From: a virus
Lineage: Duplodnaviria > Heunggongvirae > Uroviricota > Caudoviricetes
DNA length: 64,000 bases
Strand: one strand, 5' to 3'
Virus record (IMG/VR): IMGVR_UViG_2778261087_000003
Position numbers and translations under genes: made by a program. Shown piece after piece: positions 1 to 62,033 of the stretch. Under the pieces are notes generated by a model. It did no database searches. It saw only the letters and a list, made by a program, of their open reading frames with translations, and was not told where the DNA came from. Position 1 is the first letter of the stretch, and the number at the start of each line of letters is the position of its first letter.

Positions 1-1485
1 GATATCGTTCGCATTAAGTCGCTGGACTTCGACAGCCAGCGCGCAGACGTGGAGATTATCTTTACCTTCAAAGGTACCAAATCGGGTAACTGGGATGTGA
101 AGACGCTGGATAAACAGGTTGATGTAACTCCCGATGAAGATGCTGTTATGCAGAAAATCAGTGGCGGCGTCTCCATCGCCGGGATTAACGACATCATTTC
201 CTGTGACGATTTCTACCGTTTCCAGCAGCGCGGCATGATCAAAATCACTGACTCATACGGCGTTCAGACTACAGAGTCAGGCTATAGCATTGATTTTGTT
301 GGTACCTATACGGACCCACTGAAGCATGCGGTTTACCCGGATCGCCGTGACGGCGCGCTGAAGTCGTCAATTGCAAAATGGGTGCTTGGTATGATGTCGG
401 AAGGGAATAACCGCCAGATCCGTTCGGCAGAAACATTCCTGGTTGAACTGTTTGGCTCCAATTATGGCGATGTAATCGCGTCATACGGAGATACGCTATC
501 CCCTGAAGCAATTCAGGAGAAAATAGCGGATGCGATCGCCAGAATGCCGGAAAAAACAAGCCAGGGGGCTACTCGTAACGGGGATTCTGAACTTGAAGTC
601 ACCAATGCCATTTTCGGTACCAATGAGTTCCGGGCGTCAGATTATGAGATCACCACAGCACAGTTTGGCACCATTGGCATTTACAGTAATAAAGACGAGA
701 TCAAGCAGGCAATGGACGCAGCAAGTGCGCGCATTGCAGCAGAACGGAAAGCCAATCTGAATCATGCAGTCGCCGCGCTGACTCAATCGTGGGTAACAGC
801 AATCAGGGAGGCCGCCACCACAGGGAAAATCACACCTGCAATAGCGGATGTCGTAAACGACGGCTCTAAATTTATGGATGCCTATCAAATGGATGCGGTG
901 AAGTTGCCATCAGCCTATGGTCAACTCAGCTATCGCATGACCTACAACCTGGTATCAATGTTTTCCGACCTTGCCATCCTTGGGCTGGTGGATCTTAACG
1001 AGGTTACGCCGGAATTGCTCAGCATGCGCAAGAATCATGTGGAGATATTGCAGAGAATTAACACGGTTCTTGCCGGGCGCACCGATGAAGAGAAACAGGC
1101 CGACGCTGATCGGATAAACCTGGCCCTTGGCAACATCACAGAGGAAGAGATTGCCGCCAGAAACGAGAAACAAGAAGAGTTATCATCAATACAGGGTGAT
1201 GCCACCAGCATAGCTCAGTCTCTTGGTCTGAATTATCGCGTATCCACCGCCGACCTGAAGATGATGTACGCACCAAAATTCGCCGCTGGCGAGGTATTTG
1301 GGCTTCAGGAAGCCTCAGGCATGAAAGGCGTTCTTTTCCGTGCGAAAGACGCAATCAAGGCGAAATTCGGCGCTCGCTGGCTGCCAGCGAAGGCGAAGAA
1401 CAGCGATTTCCCGGGTAACTGGTGGATTATCGAGACAAAACACAACGTGGCGGACGTTCTGGCCGTCATCCAACAATACGCATAA
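1..1485 (+). CDS. 3' part of a large CDS that begins upstream of the window; possibly the C-terminus of a DarB-like protein (by position only)
   Basis: Frame 1 is open from nt 1 to the stop at 1483-1485 (ORF track shows it only from the first Met at 49); no catalytic motif recognised; sits upstream of the ulx/lxc-like pair as darB does in P1. Confidence 0.5.
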   Translation, partial: DIVRIKSLDFDSQRADVEIIFTFKGTKSGNWDVKTLDKQVDVTPDEDAVMQKISGGVSIAGINDIISCDDFYRFQQRGMIKITDSYGVQTTESGYSIDFVGTYTDPLKHAVYPDRRDGALKSSIAKWVLGMMSEGNNRQIRSAETFLVELFGSNYGDVIASYGDTLSPEAIQEKIADAIARMPEKTSQGATRNGDSELEVTNAIFGTNEFRASDYEITTAQFGTIGIYSNKDEIKQAMDAASARIAAERKANLNHAVAALTQSWVTAIREAATTGKITPAIADVVNDGSKFMDAYQMDAVKLPSAYGQLSYRMTYNLVSMFSDLAILGLVDLNEVTPELLSMRKNHVEILQRINTVLAGRTDEEKQADADRINLALGNITEEEIAARNEKQEELSSIQGDATSIAQSLGLNYRVSTADLKMMYAPKFAAGEVFGLQEASGMKGVLFRAKDAIKAKFGARWLPAKAKNSDFPGNWWIIETKHNVADVLAVIQQYA

Positions 1486-1518
1486 CAGGAGCGCCCGGTT
1501 CGCCGGGCGTCGCATAAT

Positions 1519-1959
1519 ATGGCCACACTATCTGATACAATAAAACCGAATAAAACATATCTTGAGGCGGTACTCCGTACAGCGTTGTTAGGAAAGACAG
1601 AAGACGAATACGTTGATTTCTTCCTGTCAGGGCTACGCGGGCGATTACTGAAAAATCCCCGCCTGTACCGCAGCTACGGCCCATACTGGCCGGAAATTAA
1701 AAAATTATTACTGGAGCGCGGTTATGGTAATTTCGGTCGTCTCGTTGACCGTGACGTTCGCAAAATTTACCGTTATGACCGCCCGGCGCTGACGCTCATA
1801 GCCGCGACGCTCTACAGCCAGGAGCGTTTTGATAATGGTCAGATATACTCAGCCTGGCATTTACTGCCTGTGCCTGAAGAGGTTGACGACCAGGACTATG
1901 AGTTTGAGTCTTACGATTTGGAAGTTGAAGCCTTAGCACAGGCTGGAGAGAAAACTTGA
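1519..1959 (+). CDS. hypothetical protein, Ulx-like by position
   Basis: 146-aa ORF 33 nt downstream of the preceding stop, same strand; no motif recognised; assignment by synteny only. Confidence 0.5.
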   Translation: MATLSDTIKPNKTYLEAVLRTALLGKTEDEYVDFFLSGLRGRLLKNPRLYRSYGPYWPEIKKLLLERGYGNFGRLVDRDVRKIYRYDRPALTLIAATLYSQERFDNGQIYSAWHLLPVPEEVDDQDYEFESYDLEVEALAQAGEKT

Positions 1960-2204
1960 AAAAGCGATACTACACAGTAAAGCATGGGACGCTACGAGCA
2001 TTACAAGAGTTTGCTGACAAGCATAACGTTGAGGTGCGCAGGGAAGGGGGAAGTAAAGCTCTGCGCATGTACCGCCCGGACGGGAAATGGCGGACGGTCG
2101 TCGATTTCAAAACTAACAGCGTTCCCCAGGGCGTCCGTGACCGGGCATTCGAGGAATGGGAGCAGATCATCATAGATAACGCATTGCTCCTGAATGCTGA
2201 TTAA
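1956..2204 (+). CDS. small basic protein, Lxc/Bof-like by position
   Basis: 82-aa ORF with TTG start overlapping the upstream stop (TTGA), suggesting translational coupling; assignment by synteny and size only. Confidence 0.4.
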   Translation: MKKRYYTVKHGTLRALQEFADKHNVEVRREGGSKALRMYRPDGKWRTVVDFKTNSVPQGVRDRAFEEWEQIIIDNALLLNAD

Positions 2205-2208
2205 GAAC

Positions 2209-2237
2209 TCTCCGGCCTAGGGAGATTAGGCCGGAGA
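2209..2237. terminator. 10-bp perfect inverted repeat between convergent genes (possible bidirectional terminator)
   Basis: tctccggcct...aggccggaga stem with 9-nt loop in the 41-nt gap between the lxc-like gene (+) and the SIR2-like gene (-); no strong U-tract. Confidence 0.4.
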
Positions 2238-2245
2238 TAAATATA

Positions 2246-3550
2246 CTATATAAACTTAGATATAATATCGTGAATCTGTTGTAGCGGGATTTCTTCCATC
2301 TTACTCTTAATAAGAGAGCGGTTAGATGCTGTCAGTGAAGGCCATTTTGTTTTCCAGGCTAGATATGCTCGCCATGAGTAGCCTGTTTCGTAAGGTTTAT
2401 TCATATAAGTCATTGAGTGTTCAACCGCATGTATGTATTTTTTCTCAAAGTTGGTTCCTTTTACTTCAAATAAACTACCGAAATAAATAAGCCATTTTGC
2501 CAGGTGTTCATACTGCTCCCATGCGCCAGACTCTTTAGTAAGATCTATTTTTTTATCTATTATATCACAAAAAACATTTAATACCTTTTCATCATTCCAG
2601 CTATATCCAGATGATGAAATGGAGGAAATGATATGATAAAAAGAATCCTCTAACTTCAAGAACTCTATTTTATACTCTCTTCCGTTTTTTATTACCGATT
2701 TGATTGAGTGCCTCAATTTGTCTTTTATTTTTTTTGCTTCTGGAATTTTCTTGTTAAGTTTTCTAAAGAAATCAGACACCTCTGTTTTATCTATAACCCT
2801 AATCCCAAAGCAGGAAAAATAGTAATCTTTAATAGGTTGCAATAGTTTCCCTCGGGAAATAAGGAAAATATTGGAGGACATTACGTTGTCCCGTGAAAAT
2901 ACCTTATATTCATTTATAATCGCCTTGAGGTTCGCGTCACTTAGAGAATAGCCAAGAATAACAATAGTGTTTTCATGTAGAACTGTGCTTAGTTTATTTG
3001 AAAAGTAAGAATTACCATTTATAAATCTGAAATAATCCTCGCTAGTAACAACCATATCTGATGGGGAGTCTATAGAGCCGTGAACATGGTAGACTTTAAC
3101 CTCACAATTATATTTTGGAATTGGCAGGCCGGGGGTGATTGTACACGTTCGATTCTCTCCAGCCAGTTTTTCTGCTAACTTGTCATAATTTGTCGTAATT
3201 ACTTTAAATGTGTTTTCTTTGAAAAAGTCTTGAATATATTCAATTGATGGATCAAGTTCGATTGAGGCTATGATTTTCTCAATCTCCTGGTAAATATTTT
3301 TCCCCGAAAGTATAAATTTTAGTGCAATAACCTGAGCTGCCTCTTCAAGGCTAAGGTCTTTTGCTTTTCCATCAGGAAATAATTCCTCTTTGAGTGAGTC
3401 ACCATCCTTCAATAAACCGCACAGTTGCTCCAATAAAGATTGCCAACTTGGGGCTTTATCATCAGAAACAGCCTTTGAAAATCCAGTGCCTGTAAGAAAG
3501 CACAGCCTATGTGTAGCTGCTGCATAGGCAATTTCTATATACTCGCTCAT
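2246..3550 (-). CDS. SIR2-like (DHS-like NAD-binding fold) protein with a C-terminal helical domain of unknown function; candidate NAD-consuming defence effector
   Basis: 434 aa; motifs GTGFS (aa ~21), TTNYD (~120), HVHGS (~147), GYSLSD (~200) typical of SIR2-like defence NADases; GGAG RBS 6 nt upstream of ATG; strongly AT-rich compared with flanks. Confidence 0.8.
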   Translation of the reverse strand: MSEYIEIAYAAATHRLCFLTGTGFSKAVSDDKAPSWQSLLEQLCGLLKDGDSLKEELFPDGKAKDLSLEEAAQVIALKFILSGKNIYQEIEKIIASIELDPSIEYIQDFFKENTFKVITTNYDKLAEKLAGENRTCTITPGLPIPKYNCEVKVYHVHGSIDSPSDMVVTSEDYFRFINGNSYFSNKLSTVLHENTIVILGYSLSDANLKAIINEYKVFSRDNVMSSNIFLISRGKLLQPIKDYYFSCFGIRVIDKTEVSDFFRKLNKKIPEAKKIKDKLRHSIKSVIKNGREYKIEFLKLEDSFYHIISSISSSGYSWNDEKVLNVFCDIIDKKIDLTKESGAWEQYEHLAKWLIYFGSLFEVKGTNFEKKYIHAVEHSMTYMNKPYETGYSWRAYLAWKTKWPSLTASNRSLIKSKMEEIPLQQIHDIISKFI

Positions 3551-3606
3551 TACTTACTCCATTTACTTATAGTTCTACGGAGAAGTATACCCTAATGCAT
3601 TGACGT

Positions 3607-4248
3607 TTATAGATAATTTCCTTTTCCTGTTAATACTCCCTTAGGCACCTGTTTTTGTGCCAGCGTTTGGGTTCCGCGAATTATGTTAATCAGAGGGCTT
3701 AGTAACGATGGTTCCTGGCGTGCCTCAACTTCTCCAGCCATTGCCCTGATGTAGTCTGCGCTGGCAACGTTGTTGTATTCCGTCGCAAAGCAACATAGTA
3801 ACGTCAGAACATGCTCTGTCGTTATTTCGCTCCAGTTGATGTTGAAAAATTCATCGCCTTTTTTGTCGTGTTCGGAATCGAAGATGCTTTGGTGGAGGAT
3901 GTATTTGCCGGATTCTTTGCGCGGTAACTTGATCGCTTTCTGGCGTTCCAGCTCCTTGTAAATCTGCATTGCCTCAATTAGTACCGGCCTGCCGTTCATG
4001 AAGGGATCGCGCAACCTTACACGCTGGCCAACTCGTCCAGTAATAAAGCTGTTTTCCTCTTCCACCAGCACGATAAAACCCTTTTCCTCTTTTTCTCGCA
4101 ATTCGCGCAGCAGCTGGAGTTCCATATCGCGGCGGCGTTCAGGGTAGCTGGTCCGCTCAGCCATTATCAGCTCGTTATTGATCCATGCAGCAGTCATTGA
4201 CGCCGGTTTGCCGACGCTCATCGAAACAACGCATATTTTCTTATCCAT
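3607..4248 (-). CDS. Mat-like particle maturation protein (by position between ref and the res/mod slot)
   Basis: ORF track gives 3607..4359; the first 37 codons look like a spurious extension (W/F-rich) and an AGGGGG RBS precedes Met38 (MDKKICVV...), so start placed at 4248. Confidence 0.5.
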   Translation of the reverse strand: MDKKICVVSMSVGKPASMTAAWINNELIMAERTSYPERRRDMELQLLRELREKEEKGFIVLVEEENSFITGRVGQRVRLRDPFMNGRPVLIEAMQIYKELERQKAIKLPRKESGKYILHQSIFDSEHDKKGDEFFNINWSEITTEHVLTLLCCFATEYNNVASADYIRAMAGEVEARQEPSLLSPLINIIRGTQTLAQKQVPKGVLTGKGNYL

Positions 4249-4437
4249 AGCGCCCCCTACAAAAAAGAAAAGCCACCAGCGGCGGCTTAGCAATACAACT
4301 GAAGGTAGCGCCCGGTACTCAGACTGTGCCGTCCATGGAATATTTGAAAAGGGATCCATCCGTACCGGGCGTGTGATGATTCTGACTGAAGTAACTTGTC
4401 AGTTGTCAATCATTTATCATTAAAAATAATATATTTA

Positions 4438-4998
4438 TTAGTGCATGATGTTTGCCATCTCATAGGCGTCAGCCAGCAACTCCATCTCTGACTTGTTCAG
4501 CAAGGTGAATTCTTTCTTGCCTCCAACCACACCATCGGCATGGACAGGGACCAGCCAGGGGTATTTTTCTCTTACTTCAGCCGGTGCTGCATGCTGGTGG
4601 TGCCATCTACAAAGGGGCAATTGCTTTTTGTGACAACCCGGCGCGGTACGACCGGAGATATGGTGCAGAGATACCTCTTCAGATATTACTCCATGCATAT
4701 AGCAGGCAATGCAGGGGAGAGCGCCAAGAGCATTGGCGATGCTCCGTTCCTCCGCTGTCGGTGTTCGCCCCTTCAAGCCACGAGATTTTATCTTTACCGC
4801 ACTTTTCCGCGTTTTGCTGGCTGGTGGGCGCTCTTTCTGTTTAGCGATACGGCGGTCGATAGAATCCCGCATTTTCTGATATTGCGATTCTCGCCAGGCG
4901 GGGTCAGCCAACTTTTCCCGTTGCCGAGCGATAGCTCGTTCTCTGGCTGCCTTCTGCCACTTGCGGCACTGTTCAATTTTTTGTTCGTTTGTTTTCAT
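4438..4998 (-). CDS. ref: Ref recombination enhancement function, HNH-type endonuclease
   Basis: 186 aa, basic N-terminus, Cys/His cluster (CIACYMHG...HHISGR...CRWHH) typical of an HNH fold; P1 order cre-cra-ref. Confidence 0.8.
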   Translation of the reverse strand: MKTNEQKIEQCRKWQKAARERAIARQREKLADPAWRESQYQKMRDSIDRRIAKQKERPPASKTRKSAVKIKSRGLKGRTPTAEERSIANALGALPCIACYMHGVISEEVSLHHISGRTAPGCHKKQLPLCRWHHQHAAPAEVREKYPWLVPVHADGVVGGKKEFTLLNKSEMELLADAYEMANIMH

Positions 4999-5097
4999 AT
5001 GGCAAAAAAAAAGGCGGCCTAATGGCCGCCAATGATGTCAAGGAGTGAAGTAATGGCAACGTCTTCGTAGTTGACAAAAACTGCGGCTCAATTATAG

Positions 5098-5114
5098 CAA
5101 TCAATTAGAGCAAT
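5098..5114. promoter_or_regulatory. C1 repressor operator-like 17-mer upstream of ref
   Basis: Minus-strand reading ATTGCTCTAATTGATTG, close match to the P1 C1 operator consensus ATTGCTCTAATAAATTT. Confidence 0.55.
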
Positions 5115-5245
5115 GATAGATGTTTTGTTAATCGCGAATCACATTTTTTCACTTCAGTACCTGTGTGCTATACTCCTTCTTGATTGATTGGATGCGGAAT
5201 ACAAACCCGCTCTTTTGTGCAGCCTGGCTCCTTGCCAGGCTTTTT

Positions 5246-5557
5246 TTATTTCATCATGGACGCTGTTAACGCTTTGGATCTTGCTGAACTGATTGAAAGG
5301 GCATTGTTTACCTTACCCAGGAGTTCGCCAAATTCCGCCATCACTCTATTAAGCCCGCGCCGCGCTTCCTCCTCCGTTGCATTCATCACAAAATGTTCAG
5401 CACTCCGCATGCTTTTAACGGGGAACGCAACAGATATCGAGTCGATATCTGGCATCCTATCGCTCAATTTTACGGTGACAATGACAGATGGTGACTGAAT
5501 TTGAGAGCTTACAGACAGCACCACATATTTTCCGTCTATTTTGAAATCCTTCCGCAT
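5246..5557 (-). CDS. cra: Cra-like small protein (C1-repressor-controlled function), by position
   Basis: 103-aa ORF immediately downstream of cre, preceded by a C1-operator-like 17-mer; no motif recognised. Confidence 0.45.
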   Translation of the reverse strand: MRKDFKIDGKYVVLSVSSQIQSPSVIVTVKLSDRMPDIDSISVAFPVKSMRSAEHFVMNATEEEARRGLNRVMAEFGELLGKVNNALSISSARSKALTASMMK

Positions 5558-5573
5558 GTGTCACCATAAACAT

Positions 5574-5590
5574 CAAATAATTAGAGCAAT
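5574..5590. promoter_or_regulatory. C1 operator-like 17-mer upstream of the cra-like gene
   Basis: Minus-strand reading ATTGCTCTAATTATTTG. Confidence 0.5.
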
Positions 5591-5607
5591 CAAGCGCAAA
5601 TTGACGG

Positions 5608-6639
5608 CTAATCGCCATCTTCCAGCAGGCGCACCATTGCCCCCGTTTCACTATCCAGGTTACGAATGTAGTTCATGACAATATTTACGTTGGTCCAGCC
5701 ACCAGCTTGCATGATCTCCGGTATTGAAACTCCGGCGCGGGCCATATCTCGCGCGGCACCGACACGGGCACTATGTCCAGACCAGGCCAGGTATCGCTGA
5801 CCAGAGTCATCTTTTGCCCCGTAAATCAATCGGTGAGTTGCTTCAAAAATCCCTTCCAGGGCGCGAGTTGATAGCTGGCTGGTGGATGATGGCGCGGCAA
5901 CACCATTTTTTCTGACGCGGCAAAACAGGTAGTTATTCGGATCATCAGCTACACCAGAGACAGAAATCCATCGCTCAACCAGTTTAGTTACCCCCAGGCT
6001 AAGTGCCTTCTCTACACCAGCGGTGCTAACCAGCGTTTTCGTTCTGCCAATATGGATTAACATCCTCCCACCGTCAGTACGTGAGATATCTTTAACCCTG
6101 ATCCTGGAAATTTCGGCTATACGTAACAGGGTGTTATAAGCAATCCCCAGAAATGCCAGATTACGTATATCCTGGCAGCGATCGCTATTTTCCATGAGTG
6201 AACGAACCTGGTCGAAATCAGTGCGTTCGAACGCCAGCGCCTGTTTTGCACGCTCACCGGCATCAACGTTTTCTTTTCGGATCCGTCGCATGACCAGTGA
6301 AACAGCATTGCTGTCACTTGGTCGTGGCAGACCGGACCGACGATGAAGCATATTTAGCTGGCCCAAATGTTGCTGGATAGTTTTTACTGCCAGACCGCGC
6401 GCCTGAAGATATAGAAGATAATCGCGAACATCTTCAGGTTCTGCGGGAAACCATTTCCGGTTATTCAACTTGCACCATGCCGCCCACGACCGGCAAACGG
6501 ACAGAAGCATTTTCCAGGTATGCTCAGAAAACGCCTGGCGATCCCTGAACATGTCCATCAGGTTCTTGCGAACCTCATCACTCGTTGCATCGACCGGTAA
6601 TGCAGGCAAATTTTGGTGTACGGTCAGTAAATTGGACAT
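5608..6639 (-). CDS. cre: Cre site-specific tyrosine recombinase
   Basis: 343 aa, N-terminus MSNLLTVHQNLPALPVDATSDEVRKNLMDMFRDRQAFSEHTWKMLLSVCRSWAAWCKL and the rest match canonical Cre as I remember it; loxP lies about 420 bp upstream. Confidence 0.98.
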   Translation of the reverse strand: MSNLLTVHQNLPALPVDATSDEVRKNLMDMFRDRQAFSEHTWKMLLSVCRSWAAWCKLNNRKWFPAEPEDVRDYLLYLQARGLAVKTIQQHLGQLNMLHRRSGLPRPSDSNAVSLVMRRIRKENVDAGERAKQALAFERTDFDQVRSLMENSDRCQDIRNLAFLGIAYNTLLRIAEISRIRVKDISRTDGGRMLIHIGRTKTLVSTAGVEKALSLGVTKLVERWISVSGVADDPNNYLFCRVRKNGVAAPSSTSQLSTRALEGIFEATHRLIYGAKDDSGQRYLAWSGHSARVGAARDMARAGVSIPEIMQAGGWTNVNIVMNYIRNLDSETGAMVRLLEDGD

Positions 6640-6646
6640 TTAACAC

Positions 6647-6868
6647 TCAGATAATGGTTTTAAGTAAAGTGTACAGGATCGGCTCTGCCTTTACCTGTTT
6701 ATGGTTCTCGTCATAGAAACGCCAGCGACCGCGCGTGCGTTCTATTTTCTCTTCACCGCGAGATAATGACAGTTGGTAACTATCACGCTCAAACCCTTTT
6801 GCCCGCCAGTAACCACGGTTTTTCTCAAGCTCAAGATGAGTGGACACTTTAGCAGCTGAATATCCCAT
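6647..6868 (-). CDS. small basic hypothetical ORF in the loxP-cre leader
   Basis: 73-aa ORF with GAGGTG RBS; ends 8 nt before the cre start; may be non-coding leader. Confidence 0.25.
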   Translation of the reverse strand: MGYSAAKVSTHLELEKNRGYWRAKGFERDSYQLSLSRGEEKIERTRGRWRFYDENHKQVKAEPILYTLLKTII

Positions 6869-6965
6869 TTTTCACCTCTGATTGATTGGTGGTGCTAAGT
6901 GCGCTACGCGAAATCTGGAGCACTAACACTGCCAACATTTCGCAGATTTTACGTAGCGCAACCTT

Positions 6966-6985
6966 GATCAAATGATCAAGTGATC
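6966..6985. promoter_or_regulatory. cluster of three GATC (Dam) sites in the cre upstream region
   Basis: ttGATCaaatGATCaagtGATCac; P1 cre promoters are known to be Dam-sensitive. Confidence 0.4.
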
Positions 6986-7057
6986 ACTATTTGACCTGAT
7001 AAGGTATTGAACTGTATGGATTTACAGGTAAATTGATCATGTTCAATAACCCTTAAG

Positions 7058-7091
7058 ATAACTTCGTATAATGTATGCTATACGAAGTTAT
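7058..7091 (+). other. loxP recombination site
   Basis: Exact 34-bp ATAACTTCGTATA-ATGTATGC-TATACGAAGTTAT. Confidence 0.98.
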
Positions 7092-7134
7092 TAGGTCTGA
7101 AGAGGAGTTTACGTCCAGCTGCGCATAAAAATCA

Positions 7135-7151
7135 AGAATTATTAGAGCAAT
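7135..7151. promoter_or_regulatory. C1 operator-like 17-mer (immC control region)
   Basis: Minus-strand reading ATTGCTCTAATAATTCT, between loxP and coi. Confidence 0.55.
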
Positions 7152-7217
7152 AAATTTTGAGAGAAAAATCCCACTCCACCAGCCAAAAACTGGATTGTTT
7201 TTCATAGTTGTTTGACA

Positions 7218-7234
7218 ATTGCTCTAATAAATTA
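7218..7234. promoter_or_regulatory. C1 operator (immC control region)
   Basis: Plus-strand ATTGCTCTAATAAATTA. Confidence 0.6.
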
Positions 7235-7472
7235 TAGTTTTGCCGCCGTTTCGTAATACGACTTTGGATTCACTATTTAATGTGTCTTCAGCGTTGTAGA
7301 GCGGCTCAGAAGGAAATGAGCAAACAGGGAAACCTTATACAACGGCATTACAGCTATGCATTGCTCATCTTACACACAGCGCAATGTTGTTAGATTACCC
7401 CAGCATGGATCATGGGTGAAACAGTAGGTCAGAGCTTCAGGCTCTGTGTTGTCAATACAGTGAGGCATAATT

Positions 7473-7682
7473 ATGGCTTTCATTCCACCAACCATCGACG
7501 ACGTTAGACATTGCTCTAACGCTTTATCTGTAGACCCCGCCGAAACCGACGCTGCCCGCGCCATTGCTGAACACTACTCAAAGATATCCAATCAGGAGTA
7601 CCGCATCACCCAAGACGACCTGGATGATCTCACTGACACAATCGAATATCTCATGGCCACTAACCAGCCAGACTCACAATAA
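7473..7682 (+). CDS. coi: Coi, C1 inactivator
   Basis: 69-aa ORF directly upstream of c1 with operators in its promoter region; size and position as in P1. Confidence 0.75.
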   Translation: MAFIPPTIDDVRHCSNALSVDPAETDAARAIAEHYSKISNQEYRITQDDLDDLTDTIEYLMATNQPDSQ

Positions 7683-7792
7683 ATGCACTAATAAATCTAT
7701 TATTTTCGTTGGATCCTTCTATAATGGTGGCCAACAACTCCCAGTGTAATCCGCTGTGAGTTGTTGGCCATGTCAATTCTGGAGGAGGATCA

Positions 7793-8644
7793 ATGATAAA
7801 TTATGTCTACGGCGAACAACTGTACCAGGAGTTCGTCAGCTTCAGGGATCTCTTTCTAAAAAAAGCTGTTGCACGCGCCCAACACGTTGATGCCGCCAGC
7901 GACGGTCGTCCTGTACGCCCGGTTGTCGTTCTGCCGTTCAAAGAAACTGACAGCATTCAGGCTGAAATTGATAAATGGACTTTAATGGCGCGGGAACTGG
8001 AACAGTACCCAGACCTCAATATCCCAAAGACTATTTTATATCCAGTGCCTAACATCCTTCGCGGTGTGCGTAAGGTTACGACTTATCAGACAGAAGCTGT
8101 GAACAGCGTCAACATGACCGCTGGCCGCATTATTCATCTGATTGATAAGGACATTCGCATCCAGAAAAGCGCAGGGATCAATGAGCACAGTGCGAAATAC
8201 ATAGAGAACCTGGAAGCAACAAAAGAGCTAATGAAGCAGTACCCGGAGGATGAAAAATTCCGTATGCGCGTACACGGCTTTAGCGAAACAATGCTGCGCG
8301 TCCATTACATTTCTAGTAGCCCTAACTACAATGATGGTAAATCAGTTAGTTACCATGTGCCGCTATGTGGTGTGTTTATCTGCGATGAAACTCTCCGTGA
8401 TGGAATTATCATCAACGGTGAATTCGAGAAAGCAAAATTTAGCCTTTATGACTCTATAGAACCGATCATCTGCGACCGCTGGCCGCAGGCAAAAATATAT
8501 CGCCTGGCAGATATTGAAAATGTAAAAAAACAAATTGCCATCACTCGCGAAGAGAAAAAGGTCAAATCAGCCGCATCAGTTACGCGCAGCCGTAAAACTA
8601 AGAAGGGGCAGCCAGTAAACGACAACCCCGAAAGCGCGCAATAG
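7793..8644 (+). CDS. c1: C1 repressor of lytic functions
   Basis: 283-aa ORF with strong GGAGGAGG RBS, downstream of coi and next to pacB; length and synteny match P1 C1; its cognate 17-mer operators are scattered through the window. Confidence 0.85.
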   Translation: MINYVYGEQLYQEFVSFRDLFLKKAVARAQHVDAASDGRPVRPVVVLPFKETDSIQAEIDKWTLMARELEQYPDLNIPKTILYPVPNILRGVRKVTTYQTEAVNSVNMTAGRIIHLIDKDIRIQKSAGINEHSAKYIENLEATKELMKQYPEDEKFRMRVHGFSETMLRVHYISSSPNYNDGKSVSYHVPLCGVFICDETLRDGIIINGEFEKAKFSLYDSIEPIICDRWPQAKIYRLADIENVKKQIAITREEKKVKSAASVTRSRKTKKGQPVNDNPESAQ

Positions 8645-8668
8645 TTTCCATCCGGCATGGTCAATGAG

Positions 8669-10153
8669 TTATTCATTAAGCCATGCCAGAGCTTCATCAA
8701 CCTGCGCTTCGTCTTCGACGCTAAGCACTTCATCCTGGGGAACATAATCCGCCAGCATAGCGAAACAATATGTATCCCAATGGTCTGGTGAGTGCAGGTT
8801 GAGTTTTTTCTTCATATCCTCCTTACTCATCACCTTCCATTGACCGGCGGAGTTAATCCCTACAGGGATTTTCGACGCTTCCTCAATAGTTTCATTACCC
8901 TTATCCAGTCTCATACGACCTGATTTTACGGCCTCTGCGGCTTGAACGTTGGCATAAGCACGTTTATCAAAGTACAGGCTCTTATCTTCACGGCTATGCA
9001 TCTTTTTACCCCAGCGTATACGCTGTACGGTAATACCATAATACTCGTACATCAGATCCGCCGTTGCTTTACCCAGCCCATCGCCGTCTATCGCTATGGT
9101 GATATTTGGGAATCGCTCAGGATTACATTCTGCGAAAATTTTGGCGGCAAGCTGCGTTTCTGTAACGTCTGTGTATTCCAGCATTCGATAGTTGATTACA
9201 CGGCGTTTATTTCTCTGGCCGGACACCATCATGATATTGATAACGGACTTATCCCGTCCCGTACCACCAGCAACGTCCACACATGCAAGCCAGCCCCATC
9301 CTTTGGCAATCTTGACTTTCCGCCGCGTCGCACGTTCAACCTCATCACGTCCAAGAAGGAAGCCATCCTGTGATTTAGGGAATAGTCCGCGTACCTTAAT
9401 CATGTACATAGGGTTATCACGCCCGCCGTACTCCGCCAGCTTCATTTTGATAAATGCTGGCGTTACCAGCGGTGATTCCTCACTGTTAAGCGTGATCGCC
9501 GTATAAACGCCATCAGGGTTACCAGGACGCTTGGCCAGTTTATGGTGAGTATCGTAGAAATAGCCGCTTGGGCGTGTAGGCTGTGACAGTAATAAGATGC
9601 GGTTATCCTGTCCGGTAAGAGCACCGGTGATGATACCGAAAGCTCTATCACTGACACCGGAGGCTTCATCGATAATATACAGAAGATGATCTGCGTGTTC
9701 ACCGGCGAGAGCTTCTTCACTTCCCAGACGAAAGCCCTTCGGTACTACAGTCCATACACCTTTACCAGTAACCTCATAGAAAGCGGTTTCTGTCAGAACA
9801 AAATAATCAGCAAGCCATGGAAAACGGCTGGTGGCAGTAGCCCAGTTTATCTTGATGTACTTGAATATACCGGTCATTACCTGCTGAATTTTGTTCGCAA
9901 CGATAATGGCGCGGGCACCGGGATACATGATTATGAACAACATGATCATGATAGAAGTCATGTCTGATTTCCCGGTACCGTGACCAGACGAAACAGATGT
10001 CTTGCTGCCCTGTTCCTGCACAGACTCAATAATCAGATCCTGCTGCCAGGTAGGTGTTTTGCCGAACAAAACATCAGCGGCAGCAATCCAGTCATAACGA
10101 TATAGCGCCACCAGCTCGCGCCAACGTGGATCCGTTACGCAACTTCTGGCCAT
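8669..10153 (-). CDS. pacB: terminase large subunit PacB
   Basis: 494 aa; Walker A GHGTGKS; start overlaps the pacA stop. Confidence 0.9.
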
Positions 10154-11346
10154 TAATCATCATCCCCGTATAGCTTGCGGGTAACTTCTTCGTCTTCCTC
10201 CTCGTCTTCGTCCAGGTCTTGTTCCAGCCATGGGTCGTTTGATACACCTTCAGTATCAACATCTCCATAACCGCCTGTATCAACGATATCGGCGATTTCT
10301 TCCCTACGCTGCTCAATCCACAATGCGGCATCGGCGCGGCGGTTGGCGGCCCGTTCTCGCGCAACTTTGTCCAGATCTTCAAGAGAAGGGCCACCGACGG
10401 CTGTTTGCCTTTCCTCATCATCGGTATTGGTCTTAGGAGCACGCAGATCGGCTTTGATTTGCTCCAGCATCAGGGGCGGCACTTTTCCGCCATGCGCCTC
10501 GATGAATTCAGCTGCTTCCAGCACTGACCAGTTATTTTCACGCTTTCGTTCGTATGCCAGCTTAACAATGCCAGCTTGCCCCATAGATAAAGCGTGCTTT
10601 TCCGCCTCCCGGCTTTCTTTTCGATAGTTATTCCGGATGCTGTAAATGGTGTTGATCAGGCTGCTTATCTGCGCGGAACAGCTGTTTAGCATGCTCGCGA
10701 TACGATATTCAGGCGGAGTCCCTTCATCATCGTCTTTTTGCTGATCGCGCATTTCCTGCACCAGACGAATACACGTATCCCTGGCATTCTCCAGCATAAG
10801 GAGATGAGAAAGAGACTTTTCCAGAAGAGTGGTTTCCAGAACATCGGCCCCGGACCGACGCAACATAGCGCGCGCAGCCTTCCGCGCTTCAACGTTATCT
10901 ATCAGGTAATCGCCAGCTTCGAATTCAAAGCGTTCACCATCATCATCCAGGGTGTCGCGTTCCAGGCGATCACGTAAGGTCCGGTGGGCGCGGGTGATCA
11001 CGTCATGATCATCAGAACGATCATTTATGCGCTTATTTTGGCGCTTCGCATTCTCGACTGCGGCACTGACAACGGCATTAACCCTTTGTTTTTCCGCTAT
11101 TTCAGCCACAATGTGATCACCTGCATGTTGATCATTAGAGTGATCAATGATCATGCTTTTTAGTGGCTTCCTGACTGGCTTATTTGGCTTGCGGCTGTCC
11201 GCTGCCCTGGTGTCTTCTTTGAAGGCACGGAGATAACGACGTGCAGTATTAGGGTTAAGATTAAACTCGGCGGCATACTGTGCGATGGTGTAACCACCAT
11301 CTCGCGCCAGGCGAGCAAAATTCTTCTTGTGATCGTCCCAGGTCAC
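10153..11346 (-). CDS. pacA: terminase small subunit PacA (contains the pac site)
   Basis: 397 aa; N-terminal HTH-like region, acidic C-terminus; pac hexamer clusters lie inside the ORF. Confidence 0.85.
10995..11153. other. pac packaging site
   Basis: Two clusters of Dam-methylatable TGATCA hexamers (10995-11023 and 11114-11153) flanking about 90 bp, as described for P1 pac. Confidence 0.8.
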
Positions 11347-11431
11347 TTATGCTTCCTTTCGTAAAAACTCTTTTTGACGCGAGGGTAACGAAAGTCACAT
11401 GTCAAAAGGCCCGGAACGGGCAAGCAATCAA

Positions 11432-11884
11432 TCAGATACGTGCGGATGTGGCATTACCGTAATGACGGTGCTGACGGGCCACCTTATTGAAAAGTTGACG
11501 CGCCATTACCCAAGGCTGGTGCTCCCGGCGTTCCTTTTCGTCCTGCGTCATATAGAGTTCGTTCTGGAGTTTTTCATCAAACCGGCGCGGAGCGCGGCTA
11601 CGGCGAAAGAATTCAGGATTCAGAGAGTGGATCTGAAATCTACGTGGGCGTGTACTGTCATCAATCAAAACAGACGAATACTTAGACACAGCGATAGCCT
11701 TTAAGCGCAGATAAACATCGCGCTTATCGACATCCAGATGCGGGTATTCCTTTTCAAGAATTGCTGCGAGTTCTTTCGCTGATAGAAGAGATTTAGTGCG
11801 GATCATGTAATCCGCAATCTCGTACGATGTTATTCGTGAGTGATTTATTTCCATGAAGTGGCGTCCCTGCCAGTTAAGTAACAT
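11432..11884 (-). CDS. lpa: Lpa-like late promoter activator
   Basis: 150-aa ORF upstream of pacA with a C1 operator in its promoter region; size and position as P1 lpa. Confidence 0.6.
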   Translation of the reverse strand: MLLNWQGRHFMEINHSRITSYEIADYMIRTKSLLSAKELAAILEKEYPHLDVDKRDVYLRLKAIAVSKYSSVLIDDSTRPRRFQIHSLNPEFFRRSRAPRRFDEKLQNELYMTQDEKERREHQPWVMARQLFNKVARQHRHYGNATSARI

Positions 11885-11954
11885 CCTGTCACCTACTGAT
11901 TAGCCCATGTCAACTAATCAACGTGGAATATAATACCCTCGATTAAAGAAATAG

Positions 11955-11971
11955 CAATACATTAGAGCAAT
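11955..11971. promoter_or_regulatory. C1 operator upstream of the lpa-like gene
   Basis: Minus-strand reading ATTGCTCTAATGTATTG. Confidence 0.55.
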
Positions 11972-11972
11972 T

Positions 11973-13016
11973 TTATCTAACGCTCGACGAGTGACTTGTG
12001 ATAGCGCCGACTCCAAGCGCGTAATCAAAGAACAATCGTTGATGCATCGCCAGCCTACCGTGCGTCTTCTCCCAATTATCGCGGTCACGCTCAATATCAC
12101 GCTGGCATGACTGGCACAGAGGAATTGCGTAAATGTCATGCGCGCATAATCGACTATGACGAACGATATAAGGCGTAATGTGAGCGCCAGCTCCCGCCGC
12201 TCCACACCCACAGCATGGACGGGAAGCAACAAAGTCCATGTACTCAGGTAATTTTAGCGATTGCAGTTTTGGTATTTTGAAATGCGCCATGCCAGGGTCG
12301 GAGTCAACATCCACAGGGCATACTTTTGCACGCATCGGCGCGGCGCGTTCTTCCATCATCTGAACATATGCTGTAGCGCGATCGTCATACGGGCGAATAT
12401 CCGCCTCTTTCAGAGGTCCGCTATCCTGCGTTGCGGCTTTCATCTTATTTATTGATATACGGCAAACTTCTTCCGGCATCAGGTGCATCATGTTGCGCAT
12501 GAAAGCCCACCAGCACAGTTCCTGAATACTTAAATCATGGCCATCTGAAAGCCCCATTTCCTGACGGGCGACATCCAGTATCCAGTTAACGCGATTATTA
12601 TGCAGCGTTTCTTTCAGCTCATTAAAACCACGCATCCGGTAATGGTTATCGTGATGCCAGCACAACAACACCGCGCTATTGTCTCGTTCTGCGTGGACAA
12701 TATGGTTGTCACACCAGCTACGATCTGCGGCCTGGCATTGCCCCTCTTTCCTGCGCAACCACGCCACCAGCGCGTCAATTCCACCAATACGGCGAAACAG
12801 TTCATCGCTGTTAAAAAACGGCTGCAACGCCTCATTTGTTGCCATAGTTTGCTCGGAAACAACGAGGCCGTCGTCCATGTGCTCGATTAACTCACGCGGC
12901 ACCGGCTCCATAATAAATTTACGGCCAGCCTCCACCAGCTTTCTGACTTCCTGATCCACTTTGAATGTGGCGACGCCAAGCTCTTTTTGTACAAAGGGAG
13001 TAATTACGGCTTTCAC
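11973..13016 (-). CDS. PdcB-like protein (post-doc gene) with C-terminal Cys/His cluster
   Basis: 347 aa; CCGCG...H...C...H...CQSCQ cluster near the C-terminus; position downstream of doc. Confidence 0.5.
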
Positions 13017-58307: not shown

Positions 58308-59351
58308 TTAACCTATTGCTACTGGTTTTAACAAACCAGCATCAAGTAGCTTGCGAGTTAACCACTGCTGGCCTTTACCCGTTAATTGGGGCGTCAGCCG
58401 TATCTGGTAGCCATTTTCATCATCCAGCACCACTTCTTTCACCGTGAAATACCCGGCGTTAATGTACTGCTGGCGCGGTACGTTTTTGCGCGCACCAAAA
58501 GCCATGAGAATGCCGTTCTGGCGCAACCATGAGAAAAGGGCGTTTTGCTTAAGTCCAACGACCTTTGCAAAGTTCCCGATCAGGATTCCATTAGCCACTG
58601 ATACCCGGTCGGCAAAATCGACTTTAGGGGCTGCGGCCACCAGCTGTTGTTCCAGCTGCAATTTCTGTTCTGCCAACTCGGCAGCCAGGCGTAGGGCTTC
58701 TGGTAATGTTTGGGGGATCGATGGGGTAGGGGAGTTTGCCTGCTGCAATTCTTCCAGTTTGTCGATCAGCGAACGGCGGACCGCTTTCGATTCGCGCGCG
58801 GCGACTCGCAGGGCTTGTTTGTAGGTCATGGTTATGACAACCATAGGCGTACCGCCACCTGGCGGCACGGTTGCACTTTTTGTGTAACCGTCCTCACCTT
58901 CTAATTCGTCGAGTATTTTTTCGATGAATTTGTTGTTCCGAACCTCTGGTTCCCCACATAACTTACGCGCTTCATTGACCATCTTTAACAGTGTCAGGCT
59001 GTCGATTGTGTCTCCGGTGGTGGGGATGACATTCACGGCTGGTGCTGGCGTTGCTGAAGCAACAGGTGCTGGTTTTTTAACATTCAAATTATTACTGGTC
59101 ATTCTATGTGCCTCCTTTCTCATTTCTGCTGCCACCGTTGCGTAACGTAGACGTCCTTGTTCAATCAAATAATCCCTGATCTCGGCTATCAGTAGCCTGT
59201 TGATCACAGCCTTATCTGTTCGGGTATAAAAACGCCTGGTTATCATGAAATAGTTGGCAATTGCGCCGGGGATCTCCCGTGTCGGTATACAGGCAGTATG
59301 CAGGGCGATCGCTTCGGCTATGTCATTACGGGTGACGAGAGGTTTTTTCAT
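58308..59351 (-). CDS. ant1: Ant1 antirepressor (Ant2 would be an in-frame internal start)
   Basis: 347 aa; C-terminal antirepressor domain shared with KilA; downstream of the icd-like ORF. Confidence 0.8.
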   Translation of the reverse strand: MKKPLVTRNDIAEAIALHTACIPTREIPGAIANYFMITRRFYTRTDKAVINRLLIAEIRDYLIEQGRLRYATVAAEMRKEAHRMTSNNLNVKKPAPVASATPAPAVNVIPTTGDTIDSLTLLKMVNEARKLCGEPEVRNNKFIEKILDELEGEDGYTKSATVPPGGGTPMVVITMTYKQALRVAARESKAVRRSLIDKLEELQQANSPTPSIPQTLPEALRLAAELAEQKLQLEQQLVAAAPKVDFADRVSVANGILIGNFAKVVGLKQNALFSWLRQNGILMAFGARKNVPRQQYINAGYFTVKEVVLDDENGYQIRLTPQLTGKGQQWLTRKLLDAGLLKPVAIG

Positions 59352-59569
59352 AAACCCCCCTGAACGTCGGCAGAGAAGGGGAGGCTCCAGTAACTAAGTG
59401 AATTGCGCGAGTTAGTTGAAAAACGGGCAGTAAAAATGCAGGGGCCATCAGGCAATTGAGAGCGTGCTTCGTCTTCAGTTGCTGCGATAACGAAGTGATA
59501 GTGGTGTTTTTTACAGGAATAGAAACGCCAGATGAATTCTGGGCGTGCGCAAGGATTGGCATTAACCAT
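59348..59569 (-). CDS. icd: Icd-like small protein overlapping the ant start
   Basis: 73-aa ORF with 4-nt overlap onto ant1, as in the P1 c4-icd-ant operon. Confidence 0.55.
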   Translation of the reverse strand: MVNANPCARPEFIWRFYSCKKHHYHFVIAATEDEARSQLPDGPCIFTARFSTNSRNSLSYWSLPFSADVQGGL

Positions 59570-59883
59570 AGTTACGGCCTCACAATCAGGTTTAACAACC
59601 TGCTACCCGCTGCTAAACAGGTGGCAGGACGTGACGGGGTTAGCAGACTGGCGATTGTGAAACCAGCAGGCCGAAGCCTCCCCATCACGCCCCACCATAA
59701 TTTGGGCGTAACGCGGTTTTACGGACACAAAAATACCGCAATATCGGATATCTGCGGCTGTCCGCACAATCATTCAGGCTGCTAAACCCGGTCGCAGAAT
59801 TTGCTACGACGGCGGAACTATAAGCCTGAACGATTAAAAGGTCAATATGATGCGAAAAGATAGCATTCGTGACTTAAAAATAC

Positions 59884-59900
59884 AAATTTATTAGAGCATT
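59884..59900. promoter_or_regulatory. C1 operator controlling the immI (c4-icd-ant) operon
   Basis: Minus-strand reading AATGCTCTAATAAATTT. Confidence 0.65.
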
Positions 59901-59996
59901 ATCTGCTTAATAAATACACAATTGGATCTAATAACCTCTTTTTTTTAAAGGCGAAAATATGTACCCTAAATGGGTTATAAGGCAGGTGAGGTTATA

Positions 59997-60128
59997 ATGA
60001 GAAAACTATTACTATCGTTATTATTTATGGCTGGGACTGTTAATGCAGCATCAAGCGTAAAGGAGATTTGTACCGATTATACGAAATACCTTTGGCAAGT
60101 TTACGCCTTTGCGATCAATGACTATTAA
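59997..60128 (+). CDS. possible 43-aa secreted peptide
   Basis: MRKLLLSLLFMAGTVNAAS signal-peptide-like N-terminus; GGTGAGG RBS; below the ORF-track cut-off. Confidence 0.4.
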   Translation: MRKLLLSLLFMAGTVNAASSVKEICTDYTKYLWQVYAFAINDY

Positions 60129-60149
60129 TCCATGCGTAGGAGTGGATTT

Positions 60150-60467: not shown

Positions 60468-60474
60468 ATGGAAA

Positions 60475-61442: not shown

Positions 61443-62033
<591 letters not shown>

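What the first reader, a model, noticed from the sequence alone, without database searches (positions are those of the whole stretch)
1519..3606. Accessory-gene slot: type III R-M and IS1 absent, replaced by one AT-rich gene
The backbone order (darB-like, ulx-like, lxc-like on one side; mat, ref, cra, cre on the other) is intact, but the interval between the lxc-like and mat-like genes holds only the SIR2-like gene plus a 10-bp inverted repeat. I found no res/mod-like helicase or methyltransferase ORFs and no IS1-like inverted ends. This suggests the interval is a swappable defence-cargo hotspot in P1-like elements.
Basis: inference. Interest (0 to 1): 0.55.

Follow-up and report, generated by a model that had tools for sequence, protein, structure and literature searches.

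The report
P1 phage cargo slot carrying SIR2
In this P1-like phage-plasmid, the already-known variable site between the mat and lxc genes carries a single AT-rich SIR2 gene instead of P1's restriction system; it is one of at least ten interchangeable cargos and most likely an untested NAD-destroying anti-phage protein.

Summary
The window is a P1-like phage-plasmid with the order darB, ulx, lxc, [slot], mat, ref, c8, cre, cra. The 1,402 bp between the lxc and mat stop codons (2205-3606) hold one gene (2246-3550, minus strand, 434 aa, GC 0.35 against about 0.50) and an 11-bp-arm hairpin.

There is no res/mod. The IS1 remark is misplaced: P1's IS1 lies at another locus, outside this window.

The slot really is swappable. 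In 72 related viral contigs I found 12 content classes. PLSDB plasmids confirm several of them. One plasmid carries SIR2 and res-mod together in the slot.

This site was already published as hot-spot "RD-1" (Venturini 2019). Not every cargo looks defensive.

The protein has an immune-type SIR2 NADase domain, with the catalytic Asn and His invariant and no zinc module. Its closest folds are KomC, ThsA and DSR2. It also has a helical C-terminal domain found only in this family. Homologues are stand-alone genes, seen at a prophage end and beside defence genes.

Best reading: a single-gene NAD-depleting defence that protects the lysogen. That function is inferred, not shown. It is a new member of a known kind, of moderate interest.

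The parts
49..1485 (+). 3' part of darB (anti-restriction methyltransferase/helicase). Conserved backbone flank.
   Evidence: Megablast to P1, RCS47 and SJ46 with darB annotated under the match. P1 map.
1519..1959 (+). ulx (Ulx-like anti-restriction). Backbone.
   Evidence: 99-100% aa identity in nearly all related loci that carry it (87% in L078). phrog_1629 'Ulx-like anti-restriction', 4.5e-66.
1956..2204 (+). lxc (modulator of C1 repressor). Backbone; its stop codon is the left edge of the slot.
   Evidence: 98-99% aa identity in every locus that has it. P1 lxc annotation. Homology to other phages ends at 2200-2218.
2205..3606 (.). The variable cassette (P1 'RD-1' slot), SIR2 class: 1,402 bp, GC about 0.35.
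   Evidence: Class 1 of 12 content classes. No phage record covers it. 65 PLSDB plasmids carry it at about 99.9%. 70 of 5,426 complete E. coli genomes carry it, 71 of 72 places on plasmids.
2209..2237 (.). Hairpin between the convergent lxc and SIR2 genes: 11-nt perfect arms, 7-nt loop. Cassette-specific, probably the terminator of the SIR2 transcript.
   Evidence: energy -22.2/-20.8 kcal/mol, z about -4.8. The 59%-identity SIR2 allele and the other cargos each have a different hairpin here.
2246..3550 (-). SIR2-family gene, 434 aa. Predicted stand-alone NAD+ hydrolase of the immune ('SIRim') type.
2780..3550 (-). Codons 1-257: SIR2 Rossmann-type catalytic domain with GTGFS (21-25), TTNYD (119-123) and HVHGS (155-159).
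   Evidence: These motifs are invariant in 35 homologues. N121 and H157 align with DSR2 catalytic N133 and H171; H171A chains score 4 bits lower. No CxxC motif.
2249..2779 (-). Codons 258-434: all-helical C-terminal domain private to this family. Putative sensor or assembly domain.
3551..3606 (-). 56-nt leader between the mat stop and the SIR2 start, with a Shine-Dalgarno GGAG at 3560-3557.
   Evidence: Sequence. The leader is nearly identical (1 substitution) in loci carrying the 59%-identical SIR2 allele.
3606..3633 (-). Candidate sigma-70 promoter for SIR2: TTAACA, 16 nt, TATAAA (10 of 12), overlapping the last mat codons and stop. Unproven.
   Evidence: Relaxed scan. The stricter tool scan did not list it. 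The TTAACA also encodes conserved Mat residues.
3607..4359 (-). mat (maturation control), directly upstream of SIR2 on the same strand. Its last 70-150 nt co-vary with the cargo class.
   Evidence: P1 annotation. In the last 150 nt of mat, identity to the window is 99% within the SIR2 class and 50-90% in other classes. It is 93-100% further in.
4438..4998 (-). ref (RecA-dependent nuclease). Backbone flank.
   Evidence: Pfam RecA_dep_nuc 4.8e-50.

Best explanation
The interval is the mat-lxc accessory slot of P1-like phage-plasmids, published as RD-1. The conserved backbone here accepts alternative AT-rich cassettes. These are exchanged most likely by homologous recombination in the flanks, with breakpoints at the lxc stop codon and inside the last 70-150 nt of mat.

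In this element the cassette is one gene with its own leader and its own hairpin. Its product is a stand-alone immune-type SIR2 enzyme. An N-terminal NAD+ hydrolase domain is joined to a helical C-terminal domain found only in this family.

I propose that the protein is kept inactive in the lysogen. It would be switched on when the C-terminal domain senses a component of a superinfecting phage, probably with oligomer or filament formation as in its structural relatives. It would then deplete NAD+ and abort the infection, protecting the P1-carrying population.

Shown: the slot, its variability, the domain make-up, the intact catalytic residues, the stand-alone status, and the genomic contexts of four sampled homologues.

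Inferred: NADase activity, defence function, the trigger, expression in the lysogen, and the recombination mechanism.
For: Slot:
- Synteny with P1.
- 12 content classes in 73 loci, including 29-39 bp empty sites.
- Independent confirmation in PLSDB.
- All cargos have GC 0.32-0.43 against about 0.50 for the backbone.
- Divergence is confined to the 3' end of mat.
- No IS ends, recombinase or flanking direct repeats.

Defence flavour of the slot:
- EcoP1 type III R-M in P1.
- The RelA-like cargo matches PDC-S33 at 7e-86. JukA matches at 3e-66. DUF2971 matches PDC-S31 and PIN matches PDC-S34.
- The slot adjoins the darB-ulx anti-restriction operon.

Protein:
- SIR2_2 well above the Pfam cut-off.
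- GTGFS, TTNYD and HVHGS are invariant in 35 homologues of 52-60% identity.
- N121 and H157 align to DSR2 N133 and H171.
- No zinc-ribbon cysteines.
- Confident model. Its nearest structures are all immune SIR2 NADases: KomC, ThsA, Avs5, FAM118B, DSR2.

Context:
- No conserved neighbour.
- Homologues sit at a prophage end next to an integrase in E. coli, and beside DUF4297-HerA, PD-T7-4-like, PDC-S26-like and LmuB-like genes in two other genomes.
- Bonhomme et al. (10.1101/2024.09.18.613514) place all known antiphage SIR2 proteins in one clade, which is 12-fold enriched near defence systems.
Against: - No experiment exists for this family. PHROGs lists it as unknown function.
- It fails the full-length models of every named system: Dsr2 30.6 bits against a 1400 cut-off, and PDC-S25 matched only over profile positions 127-283 of 517.
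- The trigger and the role of the C-terminal domain are unknown.
- The gene lies directly downstream of mat with no predicted terminator between them. P1's mat is under C1 and late-promoter control. Expression in the lysogen therefore depends on an unproven weak promoter.
- Some cargos of the same slot show no defence signature (GNAT, EAL+AraC), so position alone does not prove defence.
- The IMG/VR sample was chosen by similarity to this window's Mat, so the class frequencies are biased.
Confidence: 0.62

Rival explanations
1. The SIR2 protein works for the phage during lytic growth. It would be co-transcribed with mat from the C1-controlled and late promoters. It would consume NAD+ or ADP-ribosylate host or rival proteins, as a host-takeover or counter-defence function rather than as a defence of the lysogen.
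Against: The nearest structures are defence NADases, not SirTM. Homologues sit in chromosomal defence-island-like settings and at prophage ends with no phage late operon. Other cargos in the slot are oriented either way. The slot holds a bona fide host-protecting R-M system in P1 itself.
Confidence: 0.12
2. The gene is a plasmid-maintenance or host-physiology module. It would act in post-segregational killing or growth modulation, much as EcoP1 R-M contributes to P1 plasmid stability and the RelA-like cargo alters host fitness.
For: Venturini 2019 lists res-mod among P1's addiction functions. The RelA/SpoT cargo of the same slot changes the cost of a beta-lactamase without a known phage phenotype (PMC10865808). 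The gene is almost exclusively plasmid-borne in E. coli.
Against: There is no antitoxin-like partner and no conserved neighbour. A lone constitutive NADase would be toxic rather than addictive. Chromosomal homologues exist in many genera.
Confidence: 0.08
3. It is an ordinary NAD-dependent protein deacylase (sirtuin), as RefSeq/PGAP now names it.
Confidence: 0.03
4. The cassettes move by a dedicated mobile-element mechanism (IS, transposon or integron-like site-specific recombination) rather than by homologous recombination in the flanks.
For: A GCCCGG-N7-CCGGGC hairpin recurs at the lxc edge of six of the twelve classes, including the two empty sites, and could be read as a boundary element. 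Pfeifer and Rocha 2024 find that transposable elements drive many phage-plasmid exchanges.
Against: No transposase, integrase, inverted ends or target duplications flank this cassette. The hairpin differs or is absent in the SIR2, PIN, DUF2971, EcoP1 and EAL classes. The flanks are 95-100% identical over kilobases, and the breakpoints lie inside mat coding sequence.
Confidence: 0.07

Closest known systems
P1 res-mod region, 'RD-1' of P1-like plasmids (Lobocka 2004; Venturini 2019, PMC6906374)
   Same: Exactly the same locus: between mat and lxc, AT-rich, differs between elements, and res-mod is missing from many relatives.
   Different: That paper compared three plasmids and listed unnamed ORFs. 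Here the slot is tabulated in 73 loci plus PLSDB. The SIR2 cargo, its alleles, the stacked SIR2 + R-M form and the mat 3'-end breakpoints are described.
[quoted passage not shown]
   Same: A fixed position in a temperate element, flanked by conserved core genes, holding alternative compact anti-phage systems. (The comparison rests on my knowledge of that paper; it appeared in the search.)
   Different: A different phage family and different flanking genes. The P1 slot also holds cargos with no defence signature. None of the P1 cargos except EcoP1 has been tested.
DSR2 (defence-associated sirtuin 2, Bacillus subtilis)
   Same: A single polypeptide with an N-terminal SIR2 NADase and a helical C-terminal region. 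The catalytic Asn and His align. The SIR2 domain superposes at TM about 0.70.
   Different: 434 aa against about 1,000 aa. The NCBIfam Dsr2 model gives 30.6 bits against a 1400 cut-off. The C-terminal domain shows no detectable similarity. The tail-tube trigger of DSR2 cannot be assumed.
ThsA of type I Thoeris, and KomC of Kongming
   Different: No SLOG/STALD ligand-binding domain and no ThsB/TIR or KomA/B partner genes nearby. Those effectors are switched on by small-molecule signals made by partner proteins.
PADLOC candidate PDC-S25
   Same: Best PADLOC hit, 5.3e-24. A single-gene SIR2-containing candidate.
   Different: Only profile positions 127-283 of 517 are matched, which is the SIR2 core. 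The rest of the protein is unrelated. PDC-S25 is itself only a candidate.

Membership tests
P1-like (Punavirus) phage-plasmid backbone | Collinear darB-ulx-lxc / mat-ref-c8-cre-cra genes with high nucleotide identity to P1 | tested here: met
   95-98% identity over the flanks to P1, RCS47, SJ46 and P7. Gene-by-gene match to AF234172.
P1 RD-1 variable slot | Located between the mat stop and the lxc stop; content differs among related elements; low G+C | tested here: met
   12 content classes in 73 loci, GC 0.32-0.43. Definition taken from PMC6906374.
Type III restriction-modification (EcoP1I) | res helicase-nuclease and mod methyltransferase genes | tested here: not met
   The only sizeable ORF in 2205-3606 is the SIR2 gene. 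There is no homology to P1 3544-9749.
IS1 insertion | IS1 terminal inverted repeats and insA/insB | tested here: not met
   No match to the IS1 end with up to 3 mismatches anywhere in the window. In P1, IS1 lies at a different locus, RD-2.
SIR2_2 / immune SIR2 ('SIRim') domain family | Pfam PF13289 above the gathering score; Rossmann GxGxS motif; catalytic Asn and His; no zinc-ribbon module | tested here: met
SIR2_2 / immune SIR2 ('SIRim') domain family | NAD+ hydrolase activity and phage protection | not testable with these tools
   Needs biochemistry and infection assays.
DSR2 | Full-length match to the Dsr2 equivalog (about 1,000-1,200 aa) | tested here: not met
   NCBIfam NF041819: 30.6 bits against a 1400 cut-off, residues 117-212 only. 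PADLOC Dsr2 3.3e-8, domain only.
Thoeris (ThsA/ThsB) | SIR2 fused to a SLOG/STALD sensor, plus an adjacent TIR-domain ThsB gene | tested here: not met
   ThsA models match only residues 117-236. The C-terminus is all-helical. No second gene is in the cassette.
SIR2-HerA (Nezha) and Lamassu LmuA-SIR2 | An adjacent HerA ATPase or LmuB SMC-like partner | tested here: not met
   The cassette holds a single gene. No conserved neighbour is found in five homologue contexts.
PADLOC PDC-S25 | Match over most of the 517-528-position profile | tested here: not met
   Profile positions 127-283 of 517 only.
Classical sirtuin deacylases | Zinc-binding Cys4 module and a substrate-peptide cleft | tested here: not met
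   No CxxC motif; six scattered cysteines, of which only C17 and C44 are invariant.

The most novel reading that the evidence does not exclude
The 434-aa protein founds an uncharacterised single-gene defence family: an immune SIR2 NADase with a private helical sensor domain and a new, unknown phage trigger. The P1 mat-lxc slot would then be a compact, easily mined catalogue of further untested systems (GNAT, YaaC + deoxyribosyltransferase-like, DUF2971, PIN, RelA-like). These would be exchanged among phage-plasmids by recombination that carries along the 3' end of mat.
Probability: 0.45. Interest if true: 0.55.

Novelty: new member of a known kind. Interest (0 to 1): 0.38.

Why it matters
P1-like phage-plasmids are common in E. 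coli and Salmonella. They move resistance genes and are the basis of P1 transduction and Cre-lox tools.

A single, sharply bounded slot with ten or more alternative cargos could partly determine which other phages can infect a P1 lysogen. It is also a convenient natural 'library' for finding small defence genes.

The SIR2 cargo occurs in about 1.3% of complete E. coli genomes, almost always on such plasmids. It is currently labelled a deacylase, which is probably wrong. If it is shown to deplete NAD+, it would add a minimal SIR2 sensor-effector to a family that reaches up to human FAM118 proteins.

The hot-spot concept, and this very locus, are already in the literature. The advance is therefore incremental.

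Tried and rejected
- IS1: looked for its ends in the window and found none. The P1 map shows IS1 belongs to another locus.
- Flanking direct repeats, transposase or integrase at the cassette ends: only short chance repeats.
- A partner gene: the upstream small ORFs in Pseudoalteromonas and Halomonas are unrelated to each other. Neighbours differ in all five contexts.
- Membership in DSR2, DSR1, ThsA, LmuA, SIR2-HerA or PDC-S25: all are domain-level hits only.
- Whether the C-terminal domain is shuffled onto other effectors: an exhaustive phmmer found it almost only in proteins of this architecture or in fragments. The exception is one weak hit in a 3,302-aa protein.
- Foldseek matches to full-length DSR2 add nothing beyond the SIR2 domain. 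The query-normalised TM-score is about 0.47 whether or not the DSR2 C-terminus is present.
- Literature: no open-access paper links P1-like elements with SIR2. The iLund4u hotspot preprint mentions neither P1 nor SIR2. PDC-S25 appears once, in a list of strain defence systems. The Sir2 homologue of Vassallo 2022 is not this one, since no PD-* model matched.
- The strict promoter scan found nothing upstream of the gene. A relaxed scan gave one 10-of-12 candidate, which I treat as unproven.
- and one search failed on term length and gave no data.
Full report
**1. What is in the sequence**

ORF listing and family scans give this layout:
- darB 3' part, 49-1485 (+)
- ulx, 1519-1959 (+)
- lxc, 1956-2204 (+)
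- a hairpin, 2209-2237
- a 434-aa SIR2_2 gene, 2246-3550 (-)
- mat, 3607-4359 (-)
- ref, 4438-4998 (-)
- c8, 5246-5557 (-)
- cre, 5608-6639 (-)
- cra, 6647-6868 (-)

Megablast of 1-7000 finds 23 phage records: P1, P7, RCS47, SJ46, JL22 and others. Identity is 95-98% over the flanks, but none covers 2219-3606. The annotated P1 record has mat (2716-3468), res, mod (interrupted by IS5 in that laboratory mutant), lxc, ulx and darB.

The gene is compositionally foreign. Its GC is 0.354 and its GC3 is 0.331. Eight backbone genes have GC 0.45-0.52 and GC3 0.45-0.59. The gene falls in the lowest 1.3% of equally long windows in the 64 kb.

The inverted repeat is real, with 11-nt perfect arms and a 7-nt loop. 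Its folding energy is -22.2 and -20.8 kcal/mol on the two strands, z about -4.8, and no shuffle out of 200 folds as well.

**2.

IS1 does not belong to this slot. In P1 it lies at 21.5-24.2 kb ('RD-2'), which is beyond the left end of this window. No IS1 end occurs anywhere in the window.

The variable segment is 2205-3606 plus the 3' end of mat. It does not include ulx or lxc.

**3. Is the slot swappable?**

I fetched 80 IMG/VR loci encoding Mat. I located mat, lxc, ulx and ref in each by tblastn, extracted the interval between the two stop codons in 72 of them plus the window, and clustered the intervals. Twelve classes emerged.

| Class | Cargo | Loci |
|---|---|---|
| 1 | SIR2, 1.40 kb | 15 + window |
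| 2 | RelA/SpoT-like, 378 aa (PADLOC PDC-S33, 7e-86) | 11 |
| 3 | EcoP1 type III res-mod | 8 + the P1 reference |
| 4 and 12 | empty, 39 bp or 29 bp, just a hairpin | 9 + 1 |
| 5 and 7 | GNAT acetyltransferase | 5 + 4 |
| 6 | PIN_12 protein (C-terminus matches PDC-S34) | 5 |
| 8 | YaaC-family protein + nucleoside-deoxyribosyltransferase-like protein | 4 |
| 9 | DUF2971 (PDC-S31) | 3 |
| 10 | EAL + AraC-type regulator | 3 |
| 11 | 3.6-kb block with an HTH protein, JukA (3e-66) and a 372-aa ORF that was not family-scanned | 3 |

Every non-empty cargo has GC 0.32-0.43.

The sample was chosen by similarity to this window's Mat. The frequencies are therefore biased towards the SIR2 class.

As an independent check I probed PLSDB with 500-nt tags of ten cargos.
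- 611 plasmids matched. Most are 85-140 kb and non-mobilizable, from Escherichia and Salmonella.
- An evenly spaced sample of 60 contained every class, with product names that agree with my annotation.
- An 86%-identity EAL allele was the commonest in that sample. It sits in the same slot in pB1W1-p1.
- In pE2865-1 the order is mat-SIR2-res-mod-lxc, so cassettes can stack.

The SIR2 cassette itself is in 65 PLSDB plasmids at about 99.9% identity. It is in 70 of 5,426 complete E. coli genomes, and 71 of 72 places are on plasmids.

**4. How the cassettes are bounded**

Flank-identity profiles and junction alignments show two things.
- The lxc side is conserved up to the stop codon.
- On the other side, the last 70-150 nt of mat differ between cargo classes (50-90% identity to the window) but are 99% identical within the SIR2 class.

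Each cassette brings its own hairpin at the lxc edge. A GCCCGG-N7-CCGGGC hairpin recurs in six classes, including both empty sites, and is probably the ancestral lxc-proximal hairpin.

There are no transposase genes, inverted ends or target duplications. The simplest reading is exchange by homologous recombination between co-resident P1-like elements, with the mat 3' end hitch-hiking. This is inferred, not shown.

At least five SIR2 alleles occupy the slot:
- the window type
- a type about 96% identical at the protein level
- a type about 92% identical at the nucleotide level
- a type 59% identical at the protein level (P0005)
- a variant 84% identical to P0005

The 59% allele keeps the same 56-nt leader and the same mat 3' end. 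It diverges from the first codons onward and has a different hairpin.

**5. The protein**

Family and sequence relatives:
- Pfam SIR2_2 matches residues 117-245.
- PADLOC gives only domain-level hits: PDC-S25, ThsA, LmuA, Dsr2.
- NCBIfam Dsr2 and Dsr1 score far below their cut-offs.
- PHROGs has a full-length family, phrog_7567, of unknown function.
- Sequence search of the PDB finds SeThsA (3e-9), DSR2 (1e-8), other ThsA proteins and KomC.
- In the printed DSR2 alignment, query N121 and H157 pair with DSR2 N133 and H171. The deposited H171A chains score 4 bits lower than wild type.

Homologues:
- The listed relatives (the best 120 of 665 below E 0.001) are almost all full-length, 55-61% identical, and come from Vibrio, Halomonas, Xenorhabdus, Pseudoalteromonas, Marinobacter, Klebsiella, Pantoea, Pseudomonas, Delftia and Paracidovorax.
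- In an alignment of 35 of them, G21-T-G-F-S25, T119-T-N-Y-D123 and H155-x-H157-G-S159 are invariant.
- There is no CxxC zinc motif.

Structure:
- AlphaFold2 with this alignment gives pLDDT 85.9 and pTM 0.83. The model has a Rossmann-type SIR2 domain (1-257) and eight or nine helices (258-432).
- Foldseek puts DSR2's SIR2 domain first, at target-normalised TM about 0.70.
- In an exhaustive phmmer of 1.84 billion representatives, the C-terminal domain hits 75 proteins. Those near full length (about 420-480 aa) carry it at the same position. One weak hit lies in a 3,302-aa protein. The domain is therefore private to this small family.

**6. Context of homologues**

- The E. coli chromosomal homologue P0083 sits at the end of an integrated prophage, next to a 392-aa gene whose only family hit is a faint integrase arm-type DNA-binding domain, and beside host ccm genes.
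- The Halomonas homologue lies beside DUF4297-HerA (HerA 2.8e-172), a PD-T7-4-like gene and a PtuB-like gene.
- The Paracidovorax homologue lies beside PDC-S26-like and LmuB-like genes.
- No neighbour is conserved.
- The SIRim preprint reports that all known antiphage SIR2 proteins fall in one clade, whose members are 12-fold enriched near defence systems.

**7. Mechanism I commit to**

I read the product as a stand-alone sensor-effector. The helical C-terminus would recognise a component of a superinfecting phage. The SIR2 domain, probably after oligomerisation as in ThsA, KomC, Avs5, DSR2 or FAM118B, would hydrolyse NAD+ and abort the infection. The result would be protection of the P1-carrying population. 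I put this at about 0.6.

Expression is the weak point. The gene follows mat on the same strand with no predicted terminator between them. P1's mat is controlled by C1 and a late promoter. A 10-of-12 sigma-70-like site (TTAACA, 16 nt, TATAAA, 3633-3606) overlaps the end of mat, and a good Shine-Dalgarno precedes the ATG. Neither is proven.

The rivals are a lytic-cycle or counter-defence role, plasmid maintenance or host physiology, a true deacylase, and mobile-element-driven exchange. They are listed with their evidence in the rival explanations.

**8. Comparison with what is known, and novelty**

The locus is the published RD-1 hot-spot of P1-like plasmids (PMC6906374). Pfeifer and Rocha showed that phage-plasmids exchange defence genes (PMC10879196). 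P2 and P4 hotspots are the conceptual precedent (PMC9122126). The RelA-like cargo has been studied for its fitness effects (PMC10865808).

I found no paper that treats the SIR2 cargo or tabulates this slot.

The finding is thus a correct reading of a known kind of feature. It comes with an untested but well-formed candidate defence gene. I class it as a new member of a known kind, of moderate interest.

Noticed in passing
window 59300-61300: This is the only other strongly AT-rich stretch of the window; 1305-nt windows fall to GC 0.33. It lies between an antirepressor gene (58308-59351) and pmgC (61467-62033). It holds ORFs 60132-60467 and 60442-61254, which match only PHROGs of unknown function. 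From memory of the P1 map, this position corresponds to the sim region, so it is probably a second accessory slot.
   Followed up: partly
L090 (NZ_AP018809.1, pE2865-1) 3994-11433: This P1-like plasmid has mat, SIR2, res, mod and lxc in a row. The slot holds the SIR2 gene and a type III R-M system together. ulx and darB appear to be missing on the far side of lxc.
   Followed up: partly
L010, L051, L054 (slot, about 10751-12170): A SIR2 allele only 59% identical in protein occupies the same slot. It has an almost identical 56-nt leader and mat 3' end, but a different coding body and a different terminal hairpin. This suggests replacement of the gene body inside an existing cassette.
   Followed up: partly
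slot edges in L005, L013, L018, L012, L021, L055: A GCCCGG-N7-CCGGGC hairpin with a variable loop recurs next to the lxc stop in six content classes, including both 'empty' sites. It is probably the ancestral hairpin, and cargos insert between it and mat.
   Followed up: no
L013 slot (RelA/SpoT-like 378-aa cargo): The second commonest cargo matches the PADLOC candidate PDC-S33 over its full length (7e-86). By its position in the slot and its product name, it looks like the relAP1 gene. That gene was shown to make blaTEM-116 costly in E. coli M114 (PMC10865808). Its role for the phage is unknown.
   Followed up: partly
RefSeq plasmids: PGAP now names this gene 'SIR2 family NAD-dependent protein deacylase'. 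The protein lacks the zinc module and resembles immune NADases, so the name is probably misleading.
   Followed up: partly
L082-L085 (E. coli chromosomes) 6001-7311: A homologue 54-56% identical (P0083) is a lone gene at the end of an integrated prophage. It lies between a 392-aa gene whose only family hit is a faint integrase arm-type DNA-binding domain and the host response-regulator/ccm genes. In one strain an autotransporter gene lies next to it.
   Followed up: partly
window 3607-4359 and loci L039-L080: In about half of the related loci the tblastn match to Mat starts only at residue 31. The PHROG model for Mat starts at residue 38 of the 250-aa ORF. The first 30-37 codons of mat may be variable, or not translated in many relatives.
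   Followed up: no
window 6900-7350: A short GC dip to about 0.37 lies just beyond cra, near where P1 has lox and the cre regulatory region. It was not examined.
   Followed up: no
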